A stretch of 64,000 nt of DNA from Candidatus Pacearchaeota archaeon (GTDB lineage: Archaea > Nanobdellota > Nanobdellia > Pacearchaeales > GW2011-AR1): positions 627,262-691,261 of the forward strand of contig JBAZXH010000001.1 of assembly GCA_041659945.1 (NCBI GenBank). The letters run 5' to 3'. The position numbers and the translations under genes were made by a program. Shown here piece after piece: positions 1,781 to 48,481 of this stretch (within the stretch, counting starts at the first letter, position 1; each line of letters starts with the position of its first letter). The notes under the pieces were generated by a model. That model was not told the origin of the DNA, made no database searches, and saw nothing but the letters and a program-made list of their open reading frames with translations.

Positions 1781-3673
1781 ATGTCTTATCAATATTTTTA
1801 CGAAGGAGCATATTCTGCATTGGAACCTAAATATGGTGATTTATTTGTTGGTTATAGGTTACCTGCTGGAAGTTTAGGTGCTACTACAAGTGTACAAACT
1901 GCAAATCAGATAAAAGAAGTTAATAATTTATTAAATCAGGGAATGAGAAATATTGAAGTTTCCATGATCAGACCTGATGTTTTGGATATGATTCCTAAAC
2001 AGCATTTAAGAGAAATAAACAGACTCTCTAAATTAACTGGAACTGAAGGAGGAATTTCTTTACATGCTCCGATTATTGATCCATCAGGTTTTACAGAACA
2101 GGGATGGGAAGAGACAAATAGAGAAGCTGTTGAAAGACAGTTTATTGATATGTTAGATAAAGCACATGCATTGAGTCCTAATGGTCCTATGCCCGTAACA
2201 ATTCATGCTTCATCTATTCCAGGAACTGAAACAATTCCATTCGAGGAAAATGGTAAAATGGGTGAAAAAACACAAAAAATGATTGCAGTTAATAGAGAAA
2301 CCGGTCAGCTAATTCCTTTGATTAGGGAAAAAAGATATTATCCTGATAGGCCGGAGGAAAGTTTTGGAAAAATTTATGAACCCGAACAAGAGTTAGAAAT
2401 TGCAAATAGAAGTCATTGGGATAATAAACTTTCACAATTATTATTTTATAAGGATAGGGGAGATGAAATTTTAGACAAAGCTGATAAGTTGGCCCAGGGA
2501 TATGTTAATGAAGCAAAAAAAACTCAACAAATTCTTAGTAGTAATATCGACCCAGAAACCAAACAGCCGTTGACTGATGAACAAAAAAGACAATATGAAG
2601 AACAAATAGTGCAGCTAAAACAGACAGCTCAACTTGCTCCACAGTCTCAGTTACAAAATGCAATGTTGTACTTTGAAAACACTCAGCTAAGTACGAGCAG
2701 TCTTTTTAATGAGGCATATAAACTTGCAGATGAGGAAGGTAGAAAAAGATTAAAAAAAGTTTCTGATGTTTTCAAAAAAGACTTTTCTCAGGCTGTTGAC
2801 AGTAGTGGTCAGCTTAGAGATCCGGTAGCTTTTTCCAATGCTCTTCAGGGGTTAATTCAGAATATGAAATCGGAAACAACTTCCTCTGACCCCAGAGTTC
2901 ATATACCTCAAGTTTACAAACCTGTTGAGGAATTTGTTACAGAAAAAGCATCTCAGACAATTGGAAATACTGCGTTTAAATCTTATAAAAATTATGGTCC
3001 AAATGCTCCGATAATTTCCATTGAAAATCCCCCCTATGGAAGTGCGGTATCAAGAGCTAAGGATGTTGCAAAACTAATTGAAGAATCAAAAAAAGTTTTT
3101 ATTGAAAGAGCTAGAAAAGAGGGAATGAGCCAGGGTGAAGCTCAGAAAGCTGCTGATAGTGTAATTGGTGCTACATGGGATACATCTCACATAGCTATGA
3201 TGAGAAAACAAGGATTTGGTTCTGAACAATTGATTAAGGAAGCTAAGACAATTGCTCCGTTTGTTAAGCATGTTCATCTAAATGATAATTTTGGAAGTAG
3301 TCATACTGATTTGCCTGTTGGAATGGGTAATGTTCCAATTAAAGAGATTATGCAAGAGTTTGATAAAGTAGGATTTAAAGGACGGCGAGTTTTTGAGGGT
3401 GGGAATTTCTTTCAGCATTTTCAACAATCACCTCATAGCTATATGTTAGAAGCTTTTGGTTCTCCAGTTTATTCTACAGCACCAGATATTGGAGGAATGT
3501 TATATTGGAATCAAGGAGTTTTAGGTGGAGGAAATTATTTTTCAGGTATGGGCACTATGCTTCCAGATCAAAATTTTCAGATGTATGGATCAGGATTTTC
3601 AGGAATGCCTACTGAACTTGGAGGGCAAATGCAGCAGAGAGGCTCTAGAATGAGTGGTACTCCGATGGCATAG
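1781..3673 (+). CDS. xylose-isomerase-like TIM-barrel protein with large central insert and Gly/Met/Gln-rich tail
   Basis: C-terminal half has WDTSH...VKHVHLNDNFGSSHTDLPVGMGNVPIKEI...FEGG, typical of the sugar-phosphate isomerase/AP endonuclease 2 TIM-barrel fold. N-terminal half has LHAP and TIHAS strand motifs. About 250 aa of charged helical sequence lies between them. The tail is GGMLYWNQGVLGGGNYFSGMG... Confidence 0.6.
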   Translation: MSYQYFYEGAYSALEPKYGDLFVGYRLPAGSLGATTSVQTANQIKEVNNLLNQGMRNIEVSMIRPDVLDMIPKQHLREINRLSKLTGTEGGISLHAPIIDPSGFTEQGWEETNREAVERQFIDMLDKAHALSPNGPMPVTIHASSIPGTETIPFEENGKMGEKTQKMIAVNRETGQLIPLIREKRYYPDRPEESFGKIYEPEQELEIANRSHWDNKLSQLLFYKDRGDEILDKADKLAQGYVNEAKKTQQILSSNIDPETKQPLTDEQKRQYEEQIVQLKQTAQLAPQSQLQNAMLYFENTQLSTSSLFNEAYKLADEEGRKRLKKVSDVFKKDFSQAVDSSGQLRDPVAFSNALQGLIQNMKSETTSSDPRVHIPQVYKPVEEFVTEKASQTIGNTAFKSYKNYGPNAPIISIENPPYGSAVSRAKDVAKLIEESKKVFIERARKEGMSQGEAQKAADSVIGATWDTSHIAMMRKQGFGSEQLIKEAKTIAPFVKHVHLNDNFGSSHTDLPVGMGNVPIKEIMQEFDKVGFKGRRVFEGGNFFQHFQQSPHSYMLEAFGSPVYSTAPDIGGMLYWNQGVLGGGNYFSGMGTMLPDQNFQMYGSGFSGMPTELGGQMQQRGSRMSGTPMA

Positions 3674-3775
3674 CGAAGGACACCTTAGGTGCTCGAGAAG
3701 GATACCTTCTCGGCAAGTTCACTTTTAACAAAGATGAACTTTTCCTACCGCACTACCTTCCCTTATCAAGGAAAA
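3672..3775 (+). repeat. post-stop structured element (family 2, long form), shares core with tRNA-Gly intron
   Basis: Begins within the TAG stop. AGCGAAGGA (3672-3680) matches 20000-20008. The 21-mer TTTCCTACCGCACTACCTTCC (3741-3761) matches 20017-20037 exactly. Two internal hairpins at 3694-3712 (8 bp) and 3715-3741 (7 bp). Confidence 0.6.
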
Positions 3776-3836
3776 TTAAAAAAGAAAGTTTTAAAAGTAA
3801 AATTTACTTGAATAAAGTAGCAAAAAAGAGGATTAA

Positions 3837-4214
3837 ATGAAAAAGAAAACAATAGGGTGGATTCAAATAATTGTGGGAATAATAATTCCTATAATTGCAA
3901 TAAGTATTATGCTTTTTTATATTCCCAAGGAAACTGGAATCAGTGTTTTTTCAGATAAAAATAAATTACTTAATCGTTTACCTATTGTGACTGATACTTC
4001 AATACCAGAAATTCAAGATAGAGTAATTCCAGGGTTTAATGGCCTATCAAATGATACAAAAATGATTCTTAGATATGAAGACTGGAATTTACAATCTAAC
4101 TTATCTAATTCAATTAATTTAGTCAAACTTATTTCTGCATCTACAATAATCTTAACTTTAATTTTATCAATTATATTAATATTACAAGGATTAGCAAATA
4201 TTGCAGATAAATAA
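3837..4214 (+). CDS. small membrane protein
   Basis: 125 aa with hydrophobic segments at both the N- and C-terminus (IGWIQIIVGIIIPIIAISIMLFY; IILTLILSIILILQG). Confidence 0.5.
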   Translation: MKKKTIGWIQIIVGIIIPIIAISIMLFYIPKETGISVFSDKNKLLNRLPIVTDTSIPEIQDRVIPGFNGLSNDTKMILRYEDWNLQSNLSNSINLVKLISASTIILTLILSIILILQGLANIADK

Positions 4215-5211: not shown

Positions 5212-7947
5212 TTAAAAAATATCCAGTATCTCATCAATATCATCTTCGTTTATTTCTTTTAACACCTCAACATCATCATCTTCACTTTTTTTGGATGTTG
5301 GTTTTTCTTCTGAATTAGAGATTTCCTCTTCTACAATATCACTTGAGTTATCTGAATAATCATCTGCTACATAGTTTGGCACTTCTTTTTTGTTATTTGC
5401 ATTATCTGGTTTTTCAGAGTTTAGTTCGTTTAGTAATTTTCTGTCTTTTAGTTCTTCATCTGAAATTTGAGGTAGTTCGGGTATTTCATCCAGTACACTT
5501 TCTTCTTCATTTTTATTTTCATTCTCATTCAGAGGTTCTTGTATACTTTCAAATTCTACATATTCTTTTTTTGTTTTATCAAATTTTGAATAATCTTTTT
5601 CTTTTGGTTTATTATTTTCATTTTTCTCTTTTTTAAAATCATTTTTTGGTTTTTGGAAATTTGTTTTTTCAACTTGGTTCTGATTTTGAGGATGAGAACT
5701 TTCTAGTTGAGAAACTAGAACAGAAACATCGTGTGCCGCATCGGCATTTACAGAAATACTCTTTATTCCGTTTTTAATTAGAAATTCAACCATTTGTTTA
5801 TTGCTTCCTGCTTGACCACAGATACTTGATTCTACATTATGTTCTTCACATGTTCTTAAAACTCTTTTTATTGCATTGGTTACTGCAGGGTGTAGTTCGT
5901 TGTAAATATACTGAACTTGTTCATTTCCACGATCAATTGCAAGAACATACTGTGTTAGATCATTTGTTCCGAAGCTAATAAAGTCAAGACCAACATCAAG
6001 TAAATTTTTAATTATCAAACAAGCAGCAGGAGTTTCAACCATAATTCCTCTTTTTATGTTGCTTAGTTTATCCATGCCTAATTCTTTTTCTAGTTTTTTG
6101 GTTTCAATTACTTCTTCTGGAGAAATAACTTGGGGCATCATTATACCAAAAGTTTTATGTGGGAACTTTTCAGCACAGTGTTTTATTGCATTTAATTCTG
6201 CTTTGAAAAGACTAGGATTTTTTAGAGAAAATCTTATTCCGTGCATGCCTAACATTGGATTAAGTTCTACTTGTTTTGGTGCACCATCTAGATGGGAAAA
6301 TTCATCTGATCTTATATCTGAAGTTCTTACCCATACTTCTTTAAAATGTTCAGCAATCTGTTCAATTCCTGTTTGAATTAATTTTGAGTATTCACTTTCT
6401 TTTCCTTCTTTTTGGAATTTTATTGGGTGTTTGCCAGATGAGGCAATTATTCCCTCTAGTCTTAGAAGTCCAACAGCTTCACAGCCGCTTTCAGCAGCCC
6501 GGTTTGCAAAGGCAGGTATGTCTACTATTACTTTTATTTTTGTTTTTGTTGGAACTATCTTTTTGATTTCAACTTTTTTAGATTCGGTAAAACCTTCATA
6601 AACTCTTCCATTGAAACCATCAACAGTTATAACTTGACCGTCTTTTAGTGTTTTGGTAGCTTTTTCTGTTCCCACAACTGCTGGAATGCCCATTTCACGG
6701 CTTACAATTGCGGCATGAGACGTAATTCCTCCTTCATCTGTTACAATTGCTGCAGCTCTTTGCATTGTAACAACCATATCAGGATTTGTCATTTCTGTAA
6801 CTAAAATGTCTCCCTTCTGAACTTTATTTAACTCATTTAGATTCATTATGATTTTTACTTTTCCAGAAGCTAGTCCGGGTGAGGCTCCTAAACCTGAAAG
6901 AATTATATCTCCTTTGACCTCAGTTTTTGATTCTTGGGCTTTGGTTGTTATTGGACGAGTCTGTACAATGTAAATATCTGCATCTTCAACCGAGAATTCA
7001 ATATCTTGGGGTTTGTCGTAATGTTCCTCTAGTTTCATTGCATAGTCAGCTAGACGTTTTATTTCTGAATCTTTTAGAACTTGTTCTTTACTTTTATTTG
7101 GTGTTAATTTAATTTGTTCGGTGTCTCCTTGCGAATTTCTAACTAGTGCAACTTTTTTTTCAGCAATTCTTTTATCTAGAATTTCTAAATCTCTTGAAAC
7201 TTCATAGTTATCTGGTTTTATCATTCCAGATACTATTCCCTCTCCTAAACCAAAAACAGCTTCAACCATTACACTTGTATCATTTTTTACCGGGTTTCTT
7301 GAGAACATAACACCTGACTTTTCTGAATCAATCATTTTTTGAACAACCACTGCCAGTGAGAACTTTTCTTTACTAAATCCACGTTTTTTTCTGTAGTATA
7401 TTGCTCGTGCTGTGAAAAGACTAGCAAATACTTTTTTAACAGCTTCTATAAGTTTTCTATTTCCTTTGATATTTAGATAGCTTTCTTGTTGGCCTGCAAA
7501 ACTTGAATCTGACAGGTCTTCTGTTGTTGCACTTGATCTTACTGCAACAAATATTGGTTCGCTACCATGTTTTAATATTCCTAGAGCATATCTTCCAGCC
7601 TGTTCAAGTGTTTTTTTATCAACACTTAGATCTTCATAGGCCTCAAGAATTTCTGCTGCAAGATCATCTGGTAGTTCTGCATTAACTATTGTTTGACGTA
7701 TTTCTTTAGCTTTACTTTCTAGTTCTTCTGTTTCATCAACATTAATACTGTCAAGAAGTTGGAATATTTTGTTTTTTATTCCAGATTTTTCAATAAAATG
7801 ATAGTAGGCTTTTGTTGTAACCACAAATGCTGGTGGGACTGGAAATTTTGAATTAAAAATCTCTGCTAAATTTGCTCCCTTTCCTCCAGCTATCGGACCA
7901 GAATTCTTGTTTAGTTCTGATAGCCAGCGGATAAATTCATTTGCCAC
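5212..7947 (-). CDS. ppsA: phosphoenolpyruvate synthase (pyruvate, water dikinase) with low-complexity C-terminal extension
   Basis: N-terminal GGKGANLAEI ATP-grasp region, central TSHAAIVSREMGIPAVVG phospho-His swivel domain, and C-terminal PEP-utilising TIM barrel (GTNDLTQY). The last ~155 aa are Lys/Glu/Asp/Asn-rich low complexity. Confidence 0.92.
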   Translation of the reverse strand: MANEFIRWLSELNKNSGPIAGGKGANLAEIFNSKFPVPPAFVVTTKAYYHFIEKSGIKNKIFQLLDSINVDETEELESKAKEIRQTIVNAELPDDLAAEILEAYEDLSVDKKTLEQAGRYALGILKHGSEPIFVAVRSSATTEDLSDSSFAGQQESYLNIKGNRKLIEAVKKVFASLFTARAIYYRKKRGFSKEKFSLAVVVQKMIDSEKSGVMFSRNPVKNDTSVMVEAVFGLGEGIVSGMIKPDNYEVSRDLEILDKRIAEKKVALVRNSQGDTEQIKLTPNKSKEQVLKDSEIKRLADYAMKLEEHYDKPQDIEFSVEDADIYIVQTRPITTKAQESKTEVKGDIILSGLGASPGLASGKVKIIMNLNELNKVQKGDILVTEMTNPDMVVTMQRAAAIVTDEGGITSHAAIVSREMGIPAVVGTEKATKTLKDGQVITVDGFNGRVYEGFTESKKVEIKKIVPTKTKIKVIVDIPAFANRAAESGCEAVGLLRLEGIIASSGKHPIKFQKEGKESEYSKLIQTGIEQIAEHFKEVWVRTSDIRSDEFSHLDGAPKQVELNPMLGMHGIRFSLKNPSLFKAELNAIKHCAEKFPHKTFGIMMPQVISPEEVIETKKLEKELGMDKLSNIKRGIMVETPAACLIIKNLLDVGLDFISFGTNDLTQYVLAIDRGNEQVQYIYNELHPAVTNAIKRVLRTCEEHNVESSICGQAGSNKQMVEFLIKNGIKSISVNADAAHDVSVLVSQLESSHPQNQNQVEKTNFQKPKNDFKKEKNENNKPKEKDYSKFDKTKKEYVEFESIQEPLNENENKNEEESVLDEIPELPQISDEELKDRKLLNELNSEKPDNANNKKEVPNYVADDYSDNSSDIVEEEISNSEEKPTSKKSEDDDVEVLKEINEDDIDEILDIF

Positions 7948-19962: not shown

Positions 19963-20105
19963 GCGCTGGTAGTATAGTGGTTAGTATTCCTCGTTGCCAA
20001 GCGAAGGAAACCAAGGTTTCCTACCGCACTACCTTCCTTAAATGGAGGATAATTGCAGTAAAGTGCAAAGACGAGGAGACCCGGGTCCGACTCCCGGCTG
20101 GCGCA
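19963..20105 (+). tRNA. tRNA-Gly (GCC) with 71-nt intron at the canonical 37/38 position
   Basis: 5' exon is GCGCTGG-TA-GTAT-AGTGGTTA-GTAT-T-CCTCG-TTGCCA. 3' exon is A-CGAGG-AGAC-CCGGG-TCCGACT-CCCGG-CTGGCGC-A. Intron is 20000-20070. TTGC pairs with GCAA (20065-20068), flanked by 3-nt bulges CAA and AGA, as in a BHB motif. Confidence 0.8.
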
Positions 20106-27247: not shown

Positions 27248-28870
27248 ATGACCGATTCAAAACCAGTTTACATATCACCTGAAAATGTTCAGCGAATGCT
27301 TGGACAGGATGCTCAGAGAAATAATATTCTAGCTGCACGAATAGTTGCAGATACTGTGAAAACTACACTTGGGCCTAAAGGCATGGATAAGATGCTTGTT
27401 GATGCTAGCGGAAATGTTGTGATTACAAATGATGGCGTTACAATTCTTGAGGAAATGGAAATTGAACATCCGGCAGCAAAGATGATGGTGGAAATTGCAA
27501 AAACTCAGGAAAATGAAGTTGGTGATGGTACAACAACTGCAGTTATGATTGCAGGAAAATTGCTTGAAAATGCTGAAAAATTACTTGATAAGAAAATTCA
27601 TCCGACCGTTATAACTAAAGGTTATCAGTTGGCTGCTGAAAAGTCAATTGATTTTTTAAATCAAATTGGAACTAGAATCACAACTGATGATAATTTAACT
27701 TTGAGACAAATTGCAATAACATCAATGACCGGAAAGAGTGTTGAAAATGTTAAGGAAAAATTTGCAGATATTATTGTTGACTCTGTTAAACTTATTGAGG
27801 ATATGGGACAGATTGACTTGGATAATATTAAGATAGAAAAAATTAAGGGAGATGGAACAAAAGATACTGAGCTAGTTTCAGGAATTGTTTTGGATGCTGA
27901 AAAACTTAATATTGATATGCCAAAAACTGTTGAAAATGCGAGAATTGCTTTGCTTGATTTTGCACTTGAACTTAGAAATCCGGAAATTGAAACAAAGATA
28001 AGTATTTCCACACCTGAACAGTTACGGGGTTTTGTTGATTCTGAGGAAAAAATGCTAAAAGAAATGATTGAGGTTGTTAAAAAATCCGGAGCAAATGTTG
28101 TTTTTTGTCAAAAGGGAATTGATGATGTTGCACAGTATTATTTAACTAAAGCTAGAATTTATGCTTGTAGAAGAGTTGCCAGAAGTGATATGGAAAAATT
28201 ATCAATGGCTACTGGAGGAAAAATAGTTAGTAATTTAAGTGAGTTAAATAATGAAGACCTGGGAAGTTCTAAGAGTGTTGAAGAAATAAAAAAAGGGGGA
28301 AATGCTATGACTTATGTAAGAGGATGTTTGAATCCTAAAGCAATAACAATAATTGTGCGTGGAGGAAGTGATCATGTGATTGATGAAACAGAAAGAGCTA
28401 TTAGAGACGGTTTAGGTGATGTGAGTGCGGTTTTGAAAGATGGGATGGTTGTTGCTGGTGGGGGGGCTGTTGAAATTGAGCTGGCTAAACGACTAAGAGA
28501 ATTTTCACAAAGTTTGAATGGAAGGGAACAACTTGCTGTGGAAGAATTTGCCAGTGCACTTGAGTGTATTCCAATTACACTTGCAGAAAACGCAGGATTA
28601 GATCCAATTGATATGTTAACTGATTTGAAAGCTCAGCATGATAAGGGAAATAAAAATGTTGGTTTGAATTTATTTACCGGAAAGGTTGAAGATACTTTTG
28701 TTGCAGGTATCATTGAACCGCTGAGAATTAAAACCCAGGCAATTAGCTCATCATCTGAAGTTGCAACAATGATTTTGAGAATCGATGATGTTATTGCTAG
28801 CAATGGCAAGAAAAATGCAAGAGAGAATAAGTTTGGGGGAATGCAAAATCCTATGATGGGGTATGATTAA
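27248..28870 (+). CDS. ths: thermosome subunit (group II chaperonin)
   Basis: [43 protein letters not shown] and a C-terminal GGMQNPMMG tail are classic thermosome/CCT motifs. Confidence 0.95.
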
Positions 28871-28920
28871 CTGCTTAAGACACCTAACGGTTTCTTGAAA
28901 CATCAACTTCCCTTAATAAT
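28871..28920 (+). repeat. post-stop element (family 2, short form)
   Basis: Directly follows the thermosome TAA. CTTAAGACACCTAACGGTTTCTT...AACTTCCCTTAATAA aligns by eye with 3674-3692 plus 3753-3775, and with the tRNA-Gly intron core. Confidence 0.45.
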
Positions 28921-47095: not shown

Positions 47096-47115
47096 AATCC
47101 TAAGGATTAAAGCCC
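47096..47115. repeat. att-like repeat R1 (degenerate)
   Basis: AATCCTAAGGATTAAAGCCC vs R2/R4 AATCCTAA(G/A)GATTAACGCCC. Contains the palindrome AATCCTAAGGATT. Confidence 0.5.
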
Positions 47116-47164
47116 AACAATTTGCTCGCAGTAGATTAATAAATCTCCTTTTCTTAATATTTTA

Positions 47165-47332: not shown

Positions 47333-47358
47333 AATCCTAAGGATTAACGCCCCCACGA
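47333..47358. repeat. att-like repeat R2 (copy of the tRNA-Arg 3' end plus its downstream flank)
   Basis: AATCCTAAGGATTAACGCCCCCACGA matches 48311-48336 at 25 of 26 positions. The last 11 nt correspond to the tRNA-Arg discriminator, acceptor 3' strand and start of the T stem. Confidence 0.7.
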
Positions 47359-48310: not shown

Positions 48311-48336
48311 AATCCTAAAGATTAACGCCCCCACGA
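48311..48336. repeat. att-like repeat R4 at the tRNA-Arg 3' end
   Basis: AATCCTAAAGATTAACGCCCCCACGA overlaps tRNA-Arg nt 48326-48336. Confidence 0.7.
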
Positions 48337-48399
48337 GGATTTGAACCTCGGTTACAGAGTCCGCAACCCTGCGTTCTATCCAGGCTGAACTACGGGGGC
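48326..48399 (-). tRNA. tRNA-Arg (GCG)
   Basis: The reverse complement reads GCCCCCG-TA-GTTC-AGCCTGGAT-AGAAC-G-CAGGG-TTGCGGA-CTCTG-TAAC-CGAGG-TTCAAAT-CCTCG-TGGGGGC-G. Confidence 0.9.
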
Positions 48400-48481
48400 A
48401 TGAACAAGATTGTCTTCCTTTGATAATTTAATAAGATATATAAAGTCTGTTGACATTACTTTAAGTATAGAGGGGTTAAAA

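What the first reader, a model, noticed from the sequence alone, without database searches (positions are those of the whole stretch)
3672..3775. Core of the tRNA-Gly intron recurs immediately after the stop codons of two protein genes
The 71-nt tRNA-Gly intron (20000-20070) starts AGCGAAGGA and contains TTTCCTACCGCACTACCTTCC. Both strings occur after the 630-aa gene: AGCGAAGGA at 3672-3680, overlapping its TAG, and the exact 21-mer at 3741-3761. They are separated there by ~55 extra nt that form two clean hairpins (3694-3712 and 3715-3741). A shorter, more diverged version (28871-28920) directly follows the thermosome TAA. Each copy can close a 5-bp long-range helix between its 5' end and the C/T-rich 3' block (GAAGG/CCTTC, or TTAAG/CTTAA in the thermosome copy). 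The partners are not at strictly aligned positions, so I do not count this as covariation. Possible readings are intron-derived mobile sequence, a shared recognition module for the splicing endonuclease or another RNA-binding factor acting on mRNA 3' ends, or a common ancestor element captured by the tRNA gene.
Basis: seen in the sequence. Interest (0 to 1): 0.7.

Follow-up and report, generated by a model that had tools for sequence, protein, structure and literature searches.

The report
Mobile tRNA-intron module beside stop codons
The repeated sequence is a highly conserved ~40-base module that starts the introns of many tRNA genes in Pacearchaeota-type DPANN archaea, and stray copies of it have landed exactly at the stop codons of protein genes, which gives a rare view of how archaeal tRNA introns spread.

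Summary
The 21-mer and the 9-mer each occur only at 3672-3761 and in the tRNA-Gly intron (0 and 0.16 expected by chance). The copy after the thermosome gene is real but decayed (33/45 identity; simulated maximum 29).

The repeat is not peculiar to this window. An 18-mer from its core occurs in 16 Pacearchaeota/Woesearchaeota/Nanoarchaeota species genomes, several times per genome. About 70% of those copies form the first ~40 nt of position-37/38 introns, in tRNAs for at least 10 amino acids.

The module is A-GCG-A/C-AGGA(A/C)ACC, a loop, then GGUUUCCUACCGC-ACUACCUUCC. It starts at the 5' splice site. Each intron's variable 3' end supplies the 4-bp central helix of the bulge-helix-bulge motif. 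The usual inner helix is missing in these introns, so the module probably replaces it.

A minority of copies lie outside introns:
- overlapping in-frame TAG stops (this 630-aa gene, rpoB, apgM and others);
- in tRNA 5' leaders.

The two ectopic window copies are lineage-specific insertions. Four of four orthologous loci lack each one. Neither has a 3' splice partner.

The rpoB copy, in contrast, is kept intact across lineages whose synonymous sites are saturated.

I found no Rfam family or paper describing the module. I class it as a new variant of translocatable archaeal tRNA introns.

The parts
19963..20105 (+). tRNA-Gly(GCC) gene interrupted at position 37/38
   Evidence: Rfam tRNA 42 bits; aragorn with introns
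20000..20070 (+). 71-nt bulge-helix-bulge intron. The central helix is UUGC (nt 32-35) paired with GCAA (intron nt n-5 to n-2), and the 3' exon starts at 20071
   Evidence: 9/9 pairs in the splice-site scan; central helix 4/4 and inner helix 2/4
20000..20037 (+). Canonical copy of the conserved intron 5' module (AGCGAAGGAAACC-AA-GGTTTCCTACCGCACTACCTTCC)
   Evidence: Model R1, 66 bits, E 2e-21; fold shows GCG/CGC plus AGGAAAC/GUUUCCU
3672..3761 (+). Ectopic ('solo') module copy 1. The 5' half is at 3672-3684 and the 3' half at 3741-3761, split by an apical-loop insertion
   Evidence: Model R1, end to end, 46.3 bits, E 1.4e-13; exact 9-mer and 21-mer; absent from 4/4 orthologous loci
3685..3740 (+). 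~55-nt insertion in the module's apical loop, forming hairpins at 3681-3691, 3693-3713 and 3715-3741
   Evidence: RNA fold z = -3.1. Comparable apical-loop expansions occur in L014 tRNA-Val and in the second module of L036 tRNA-Trp
3762..3777 (+). Trailing part of the insert (CTTATCAAGG...). From about 3790 the sequence is orthologous to the native promoter/SD region of the next gene
   Evidence: Comparison with L066, which lacks the module; the YUURA motif after the tail is common in the family
1781..3673 (+). 630-aa TIM-barrel-domain protein gene whose TAG (3671-3673) overlaps the module start (TA|GCG)
   Evidence: ORF list; Pfam AP_endonuc_2; orthologues end ...SGTPMA with TAA or TGA and no module
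28872..28916 (+). Decayed module copy starting 2 nt after the thermosome TAA. The hairpin GACACCTAACGGTTTC is intact and the 18-mer core is degraded
   Evidence: 33/45 ungapped identity to the subtype consensus against a simulated maximum of 29; model R1 14.5 bits for the hairpin only; absent from 4/4 orthologous thermosome loci
27248..28870 (+). Thermosome (Cpn60/TCP-1) gene preceding the decayed copy
   Evidence: Homologues named thermosome, PF00118

Best explanation
The element at 3672-3775 is a stray copy of a ~40-45-nt cassette. In Pacearchaeota/Woesearchaeota-type DPANN archaea this cassette forms the 5' end of the canonical (37/38) introns of many different tRNA genes.

How it sits in a pre-tRNA:
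- The cassette starts at the 5' splice site or 1 nt after it.
- It folds into a hairpin closed by GCG/CGC and AGGA/UCCU. The apical loop can be 3 nt or more than 50 nt.
- An invariant single-stranded tail, ACUACCUUCC, follows the hairpin.
- Each intron's own variable 3' end pairs with anticodon-loop nt 32-35 to make the 4-bp central helix of the bulge-helix-bulge motif.

Inferred step: the cassette hairpin takes the place of the missing inner helix (h'). It presents the 5' cleavage site to the lineage's broad-specificity splicing endonuclease. This makes it a portable 'half intron' that needs only a few tRNA-specific bases to work.

The cassette is gained and lost between tRNA genes. It occasionally inserts elsewhere in transcribed DNA, typically directly after ...TA, so that its first G completes a TAG stop.

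The two window copies next to protein genes are such lineage-specific insertions. They cannot be spliced because they have no 3' partner. One is already decaying. They are most likely neutral or at most mildly useful 3'-UTR hairpins.

Shown: family membership, structure outline, splice geometry, lineage-specific insertion, decay.
Inferred: the role as an h' substitute, the mobility mechanism, and the neutrality of the ectopic copies.
For: Distribution. The 18-mer CCTACCGCACTACCTTCC hits 33 loci in 16 archaeal species-representative genomes, with up to 7 exact copies in one 857-kb genome. It also hits 6 scattered bacterial loci, which look like chance. Twenty-four of those loci are tRNA introns, covering Gly, Arg, Val, Leu, Phe, Ser, Thr, Glu, Trp, Ile, Lys and an Ala variant. 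The module is always at the intron's first 1-2 nt, and the 3' parts are unrelated.

Conservation. tRNA-Gly(GCC) introns from five species share the module but not the rest of the intron.

Structure. Pairing is 92% with two compensatory pairs, for example L025 GAAGAAAACC/GGTTTTCT. All large insertions fall in the apical loop.

Splice geometry. The central helix is intact in all introns (3.8/4 pairs). The inner helix is at random level in 24 module introns (1.4/4) against 2.7/4 in 9 module-less introns.

Turnover. tRNA-Val(TAC) has no intron in the window but carries a module intron in L004, L014 and L038. tRNA-Lys and tRNA-Trp vary in the same way.

Ectopic copies. The module is absent after the stop codon in 4/4 orthologues of the 630-aa gene, whose C-terminus and coding DNA are otherwise conserved. 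It is also absent in 4/4 thermosome orthologues. The thermosome copy is degenerate. Neither ectopic copy has a BHB partner beyond the random level.

Literature. DPANN alpha4 endonucleases with the L3 loop are associated with more disrupted tRNA genes (PMC5829648). tRNA introns that move between tRNAs are known in Thermoproteales (PMC4090602).
Against: The sequence conservation of the 3' strand and tail is far stronger than a mere helix substitute requires. That points to a sequence-specific partner that I could not identify.

The rpoB-stop copy is intact in three lineages whose third-codon identity is only 0.37-0.39. This argues that at least some ectopic copies are maintained by selection and are not neutral.

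Three of four independent ORF-adjacent copies found without bias overlap the stop codon exactly. Random insertion followed by tolerance does not fully explain that.

The inner-helix comparison rests on small samples that are partly non-independent. Ascertainment by an exact 18-mer inflates the apparent conservation.

No RNA data were available.
Confidence: 0.5

Rival explanations
1. The module is a portable RNA signal that is also used on mRNAs. The factor that recognises it in pre-tRNAs (the splicing endonuclease or a module-binding protein) would act at the start of the 3' UTR. It would cut the transcript at or next to the stop codon, or block 3'-to-5' decay. This would punctuate operons such as rpoB-rpoA1 and define the 3' ends of highly expressed mRNAs such as the thermosome.
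For: In-frame TAG overlap with the module start occurs in the 630-aa gene, rpoB (three species), an apgM-like gene, a 131-aa gene and L062. All these copies are in sense orientation. The rpoB copy is 39-41/45 identical between lineages with saturated synonymous sites, and the differences lie only in the apical loop. The host genes include very highly expressed ones.
Against: Both window insertions are absent from all close orthologues. The thermosome copy has lost the invariant 18-mer. There is no BHB partner. Cutting at the intron-equivalent site (U|AG or UA|G) would destroy the stop codon. Several copies are not next to an ORF end at all (L008, L018, L040 and the tRNA leaders). Gene conversion from the many intron copies could also keep the rpoB copy intact.
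Confidence: 0.3
2. It is a DNA-level miniature mobile element comparable to bacterial REP/MITE hairpin repeats. An unidentified transposase or recombinase would insert it 3' of a short target (…TA). tRNA introns would simply be the safest landing sites.
For: It is tiny and has a hairpin. It is found just after stop codons and between operon genes. There are tandem partial duplications (L009, L018, L036, L052). There are exact 15-17-bp duplications of the upstream target in the tRNA-Ser and tRNA-Lys leader copies. The junction is often ATA|G.
Against: The 5' end coincides with the RNA splice site in 24 or more introns whose preceding bases differ (CCA, GAAG, CGG, UUA and others). That is an RNA-defined boundary, not a DNA-defined one. 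There are no terminal inverted repeats. ORF-adjacent copies show no significant target duplication. No antisense copies were seen. No transposase was identified. An insertion alone would not supply the tRNA-specific 3' complement needed for splicing.
Confidence: 0.12
3. The two long copies (3672 and 20000) are attachment-site repeats left by an integrated element, or copy 1 is a decayed partial tRNA-Gly gene.
For: They are direct repeats 16.3 kb apart and one lies in a tRNA gene. On first inspection the flanks of copy 1 resembled the tRNA exons.
Against: The upstream flank is conserved coding sequence in orthologues that lack the module, and the downstream flank is orthologous to L066's promoter region. 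The interval carries housekeeping genes such as pyruvate phosphate dikinase. The same module occurs in dozens of unrelated loci.
Confidence: 0.03

Closest known systems
Translocatable ('transposing') BHB tRNA introns of Thermoproteales (Fujishima et al. 2010, as summarised in PMC4090602 and PMC10714607)
   Same: Near-identical intron sequence is shared by tRNA genes of different identity. This implies intron gain by copying between tRNA genes. The mechanism is unknown. It is linked to a splicing endonuclease with relaxed specificity.
   Different: Here the lineage is DPANN (Pacearchaeota/Woesearchaeota). Only the 5' ~40 nt is shared, and it is conserved across species. The copies sit at the canonical 37/38 site rather than mostly at non-canonical sites. 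Copies also occur outside tRNA genes, at ORF stop codons and in tRNA leaders.
Leader sequences of split and tri-split tRNA genes (Nanoarchaeum equitans, Caldivirga maquilingensis; PMC4390854)
   Same: Intron-derived sequence serves as a pairing scaffold. L024 carries only the 3' half of the module, followed by a tRNA 3' half and preceded by a TATA-like box. Apical-loop expansions look like intermediates towards such a split.
   Different: The window copies are not attached to any tRNA half. No matching 5' half was located.
Bacterial REP elements (short hairpin repeats after stop codons; from my own knowledge, not tested here)
   Same: Both are ~35-45-nt hairpin repeats. Both are multi-copy, lie just downstream of stop codons or between operon genes, and are sometimes tandem.
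   Different: REPs are extragenic DNA repeats mobilised by RAYT transposases. This module is mainly an intron component with an RNA-defined 5' end, and no transposase is known for it.
Functional RNAs hosted in archaeal tRNA introns (the box C/D guide in the tRNA-Trp intron; from my own knowledge)
   Same: Part of an intron is conserved for a reason beyond being removed.
   Different: No C/D boxes and no K-turn could be drawn. The module is shared by many tRNAs rather than belonging to one.

Membership tests
Archaeal BHB tRNA intron (applied to 20000-20070) | Interrupts a tRNA gene, classically between nt 37 and 38 | tested here: met
   Rfam tRNA hit spanning 19963-20105; aragorn intron call; anticodon loop UUGCCA|intron|A
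Archaeal BHB tRNA intron (applied to 20000-20070) | 4-bp central helix flanked by two 3-nt bulges that carry the splice sites, with outer and inner helices | tested here: inconclusive
   Outer helix 5/5 and central helix 4/4. The inner helix is only 2/4, so the motif is relaxed, with the module hairpin following the 5' bulge.
Archaeal BHB tRNA intron (applied to 20000-20070) | Cleaved by the splicing endonuclease and ligated by RtcB | not testable with these tools
   No RNA or enzyme data were available
Archaeal BHB intron (applied to the ectopic copies 3672-3775 and 28872-28916) | A downstream partner able to form the central and outer helices with the 5' flank | tested here: not met
   Copy 1 reaches at best 7/9 pairs within 400 nt, where random positions mostly reach 8/9. 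The thermosome copy is within the null range.
The conserved DPANN intron 5' module (family defined here, model R1) | GCG...CGC-closed hairpin (AGGAAACC/GGUUUCCU) followed by the ACUACCUUCC tail | tested here: met
   tRNA-Gly copy 66 bits; copy 1 46.3 bits end to end. The thermosome copy meets it only partly: hairpin 14.5 bits, 33/45 identity.
Translocatable tRNA introns (Thermoproteales type) | The same intron sequence in tRNA genes of different identity, with presence or absence varying between related species | tested here: met
   The module occurs in introns of tRNAs for at least 10 amino acids. tRNA-Val(TAC) has no intron in the window but carries a module intron in L004, L014 and L038.
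REP/MITE-type DNA repeats | Terminal inverted repeats or target-site duplication, both orientations, and an associated transposase | tested here: not met
   ORF-adjacent copies show no significant target duplication. Only the tRNA-leader copies show a 15-17-bp duplication. All copies are in sense orientation. No transposase was searched for genome-wide.
Any Rfam family | A match to a curated covariance model | tested here: not met
   Only tRNA reaches the gathering score in the window. At 3600-3900 there is only a chance-level wcaG hit, E 0.57.

The most novel reading that the evidence does not exclude
The module is a self-contained recognition and cleavage signal. The splicing endonuclease, or a dedicated module-binding protein, would cut at its 5' edge wherever it is transcribed. 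Copies fused to stop codons (rpoB|rpoA1, thermosome, this 630-aa gene) would then punctuate mRNAs, an archaeal counterpart of mitochondrial tRNA punctuation or MALAT1/mascRNA 3'-end formation. A related reading is that the precise ...UA|GCG and tRNA-A14|GCG junctions record RNA-level ligation of excised introns onto cleaved RNAs, followed by copying back into DNA. That would be a mechanism for archaeal intron mobility.
Probability: 0.15. Interest if true: 0.85.

Novelty: new variant of a known kind. Interest (0 to 1): 0.64.

Why it matters
How archaeal tRNA introns spread between genes has been unknown since 'intron transposition' was inferred in Thermoproteales. This family helps in three ways:
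- It has a sharply defined, strongly conserved cassette.
- It offers many filled and empty sites in related genomes.
- Its ectopic insertions have base-precise junctions at stop codons and at tRNA position 14.

Together these turn the question into something testable. The sequence conservation also predicts a sequence-specific partner, either the endonuclease's L3 loop or another protein.

On the practical side, long module-bearing introns (105-181 nt in tRNA-Val and tRNA-Trp) may explain tRNAs reported as 'missing' from Nanobdellota genomes.

If the mRNA copies turn out to be processed, that would be a new mode of archaeal mRNA 3'-end formation.

Tried and rejected
1. Chance or low-complexity k-mer. 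Rejected.

2. Copy 1 as a decayed tRNA-Gly gene or att site. The flank similarities disappeared once orthologues showed that the upstream flank is conserved coding DNA and the downstream flank is native promoter.

3. Stop-codon readthrough or a recoding signal. In-frame stops follow within 5-14 codons in the window copy and in L023 (by reading).

4. Ectopic copies as true introns. No BHB partner.

5. Complementarity to, or mimicry of, the 16S rRNA 3' end. I used a universal consensus recalled from memory, because no rRNA is present in any locus. Duplex energy against shuffles gave p of about 0.03-0.14, post hoc, so I dropped it.

6. K-turn, box C/D, H/ACA, hammerhead and ORB-like motifs. None could be drawn by eye. 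Rfam has nothing.

7. No covariation.

8. A viral or plasmid vector. The 16-mer hits in IMG/VR score 14-24 bits and lack the module.

9. Target-site duplication at ORF-adjacent copies. Not significant; the best case is L060 at p = 0.02.

10. The 125-aa ORF downstream of copy 1 as cargo. It is absent from the orthologous loci, but nothing links it to the module.

11. Literature. Four full-text searches found no description of this module.
Full report
**Observation.** The exact 21-mer TTTCCTACCGCACTACCTTCC occurs at 3741-3761 and 20017-20037. It occurs nowhere else in the window, even allowing 3 mismatches, and no shuffle produced a match. AGCGAAGGA occurs only at 3672 and 20000 (0.16 expected). 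The second site lies in a tRNA-Gly(GCC) gene (19963-20105) with a 71-nt intron between nt 37 and 38. The first site overlaps the TAG of a 630-aa ORF.

**It is a family, not a window curiosity.** I scanned one genome per prokaryotic species for the 18-mer core. This returned 39 loci. Thirty-three lie in 16 Pacearchaeota, Woesearchaeota or Nanoarchaeota MAGs, with several copies per genome: 7 exact copies in one 857-kb contig, and 5 each in two others. Six lie in scattered bacteria. I estimate that an 18-mer should hit 596 Gb by chance on the order of ten times, which accounts for those six.
- Listing the contexts and running aragorn with introns allowed shows that 24 of the archaeal loci are tRNA introns.
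- These cover Gly, Arg, Val, Leu, Phe, Ser, Thr, Glu, Trp, Ile, Lys and an Ala variant.
- In every case the module occupies the first ~40 nt of the intron: (A)GCG-A/C-AGGA-A/C-ACC, a loop, GGTTTCCTACCGC, then ACTACCTTCC.
- The rest of each intron is unrelated.
- A covariance model built from 24 copies (A1/R1) scores true members at 46-67 bits, including window copy 1 end to end at 46.3 bits.
- The bacterial and viral chance hits reach only 14-26 bits.
- The window's source is a Pacearchaeota MAG that is not itself in the scanned genome set.

**Anatomy.** The predicted fold is a hairpin closed by GCG/CGC and AGGAAACC/GGUUUCCU, followed by a single-stranded tail.
- Across the family it is 92% paired and shows two compensatory pairs, for example L025 tRNA-Ala GAAGAAAACC...GGTTTTCT.
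- The best structural evidence is that all large length changes fall in the apical loop: window copy 1, L014 tRNA-Val, and the second module in L036 tRNA-Trp.
- In introns the tail usually pairs with a variable downstream segment, in different registers (by inspection). Pairing therefore does not explain why the tail sequence is invariant.
- The apparent invariance of the 3' half is inflated, because I found the copies with an exact 18-mer. 'Bystander' copies do vary: L025 Ala, L038 Val, the L064 leader copy and the thermosome copy.

**Relation to splicing.** For 33 intron-containing tRNAs I placed the splice sites from the anticodon position.
- The 4-bp central helix (nt 32-35 paired with intron nt n-5 to n-2) is present in essentially all of them (3.8/4 pairs).
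- In the window tRNA-Gly it is UUGC/GCAA, and the 3' exon starts at 20071.
- The inner helix expected after the 5' bulge is at random level in the 24 module introns (1.4/4) against 2.7/4 in the 9 module-less introns.
- The module therefore begins exactly where h' should begin, and I infer that its GCG/CGC-closed hairpin stands in for h'.
- This fits published evidence that DPANN alpha4 endonucleases carrying the L3 loop go with more disrupted tRNA genes (PMC5829648).
- This is an inference from small, partly non-independent samples.

**Turnover.** The same tRNA can carry the module intron or lack it, depending on the species.
- tRNA-Val(TAC) has no intron in the window but a module intron in L004, L014 and L038.
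- tRNA-Lys(TTT) has a module intron in L056, a module-less intron in L023, and no intron in L064.
- tRNA-Trp ranges from no intron to a 181-nt intron with two tandem modules.
- This is the pattern described for 'translocatable' introns in Thermoproteales (PMC4090602 and PMC10714607).

**Copies outside introns.** In the unbiased genome scan about 9 of 33 archaeal loci are not ordinary introns.
- L023 and L035 follow rpoB, and L009 follows a 131-aa ORF. In all three, as in the window's 630-aa gene, an in-frame TAG is formed by the host ...TA plus the module's first G.
- A metagenome scan biased to a preceding T added another rpoB case (L060), an apgM-like gene (L065) and L062.
- L033, L034, L054, L058, L061 and L064 carry the module in the 5' leader of intronless tRNA-Ser or tRNA-Lys. 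There it is preceded by an exact duplicate of tRNA nt 1-14/15.
- L024 has only the 3' half of the module, followed by a tRNA 3' half.
- L008, L018 and L040 are intergenic.

**The window's ectopic copies are insertions.**
- Four orthologues of the 630-aa TIM-barrel protein (53-59% identity) keep the C-terminal ...SGTPMA codons, which are almost identical DNA in L068. They end in TAA or TGA, have 38-56-nt spacers (280 nt in L066), and have no module.
- The apparent tRNA-like similarity of copy 1's flanks is therefore coincidence. The upstream flank is conserved coding sequence. The downstream flank (from about 3790) is orthologous to L066's promoter/SD region.
- Four thermosome orthologues (76-82% identity) likewise lack any module.
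- The thermosome copy is nevertheless genuine: 33/45 ungapped identity to the 'GACACCTAACGG' subtype consensus against a simulated maximum of 29. It has lost the invariant core, so it is decaying.
- Neither ectopic copy has a downstream partner for a BHB beyond what random positions achieve, while the tRNA-Gly control scores 9/9. They cannot be spliced.

**A complication.** The rpoB copy is not decaying. Between L023 and L035/L060, third-codon identity in the last 600 nt of rpoB is 0.37-0.39, which is saturated. The module is still 39-41/45 identical, and all differences are in the apical loop. Either selection or gene conversion from the many intron copies maintains it. Together with the recurrent exact overlap of the stop codon, this keeps open a real function on mRNAs. 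I give that rival 0.3.

**Mechanism of spread.** The 5' boundary coincides with the RNA splice site whatever bases precede it, so the boundary is defined at the RNA level or by function, not by a DNA target. ORF-adjacent copies show no significant target duplication. Only the tRNA-leader copies do. A REP/MITE-like DNA element therefore seems less likely (0.12). An RNA-mediated route, in which excised intron is joined to cleaved RNA ends and then copied back into DNA, would explain the UA|GCG and A14|GCG junctions. It is pure speculation without evidence of a reverse transcriptase.

**Known or new.** Rfam has no matching family. Four full-text searches found the general concepts: intron transposition in Thermoproteales, split-tRNA leaders, and EndA diversity in DPANN. 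None described this module. I class it as a new variant of a known kind.

**Verdict.**
- 'Intron-derived mobile sequence' is supported.
- The splicing-signal role on mRNAs is untested.
- The long-range helix is unsupported.

Noticed in passing
window 47096-47121, 47333-47358, 48311-48336 (tRNA-Arg at 48325-48400, minus strand): The last 11 nt of tRNA-Arg(GCG) plus a 15-nt palindromic flank (AATCCTAAGGATTAACGCCCCCACGA) recur about 1 kb away at 96% identity and again at 73% identity. They bracket a ~950-bp segment with a 250-aa ORF (no Pfam hit) and a 55-aa membrane ORF. This looks like att-type repeats from one or two small insertions at the tRNA 3' end.
   Followed up: partly
L033 6084-6255, L034 33-195, L054, L058, L061, L064 60-215 (tRNA-Ser); L064 6507-6665 (tRNA-Lys): Intronless tRNA-Ser and tRNA-Lys genes are preceded by this arrangement: a duplicate of tRNA nt 1-14/15, the module, then a ~35-nt spacer. 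The duplicate changes together with the tRNA between species. In the Lys case it pairs with the spacer, enclosing the module in its own stem. The origin and processing are unexplained.
   Followed up: partly
L024 about 6180-6310 (minus strand): Only the 3' half of the module (GTTTCTTTCCTACCGCACTACCTTCC) is present. It is preceded by a TATA-like TTTTTAAA about 22 nt upstream and followed by a tRNA 3' half. This is a candidate split tRNA gene whose halves would pair through the module stem. The 5' half was not located.
   Followed up: no
L036 6192-6444 (tRNA-Trp, 181-nt intron); L014 1044-1220 (tRNA-Val, 105-nt intron): These are very long module introns. The Trp intron holds two tandem modules, the second with a ~60-nt apical expansion. 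Such genes may escape standard tRNA finders. A 2026 preprint reports order-specific 'missing' Trp and Val tRNAs in complete Nanobdellota genomes.
   Followed up: no
L005 about 1400-1420, L006 about 7650-7670, L052 715-735, L059; partial in L003 and L008: A second shared motif, (TT)GGCTCAAGGCTGA, follows the module in several introns and in one ectopic copy. This suggests the introns are built from more than one reusable block.
   Followed up: no
L009 1800-1940 (minus strand); L018 about 1290-1400; L052/L059: There are tandem partial duplications of the module. L009 has a ~50-nt unit beginning CCTACCGCACTACCTTCC repeated about 2.5 times. L018 has 1.5 copies including 16 nt of upstream flank.
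   Followed up: no
window 3837-4214: A 125-aa predicted membrane ORF sits between copy 1 and the NTP_transf_2 gene. It has no counterpart in four orthologous loci and no Pfam hit. It starts at the position where the nucleotidyltransferase gene starts in L066.
   Followed up: partly
window 1781-3673 and homologues P0002-P0120: The 630-aa protein (AP_endonuc_2/TIM-barrel domain at 424-539, Gly/Met/Gln-rich tail) belongs to a large uncharacterised family. There are 778 hits at E <= 1e-20. The named hits are mostly Pacearchaeota/Nanoarchaeota, and in the four loci examined the gene is syntenic with a nucleotidyltransferase gene.
   Followed up: no
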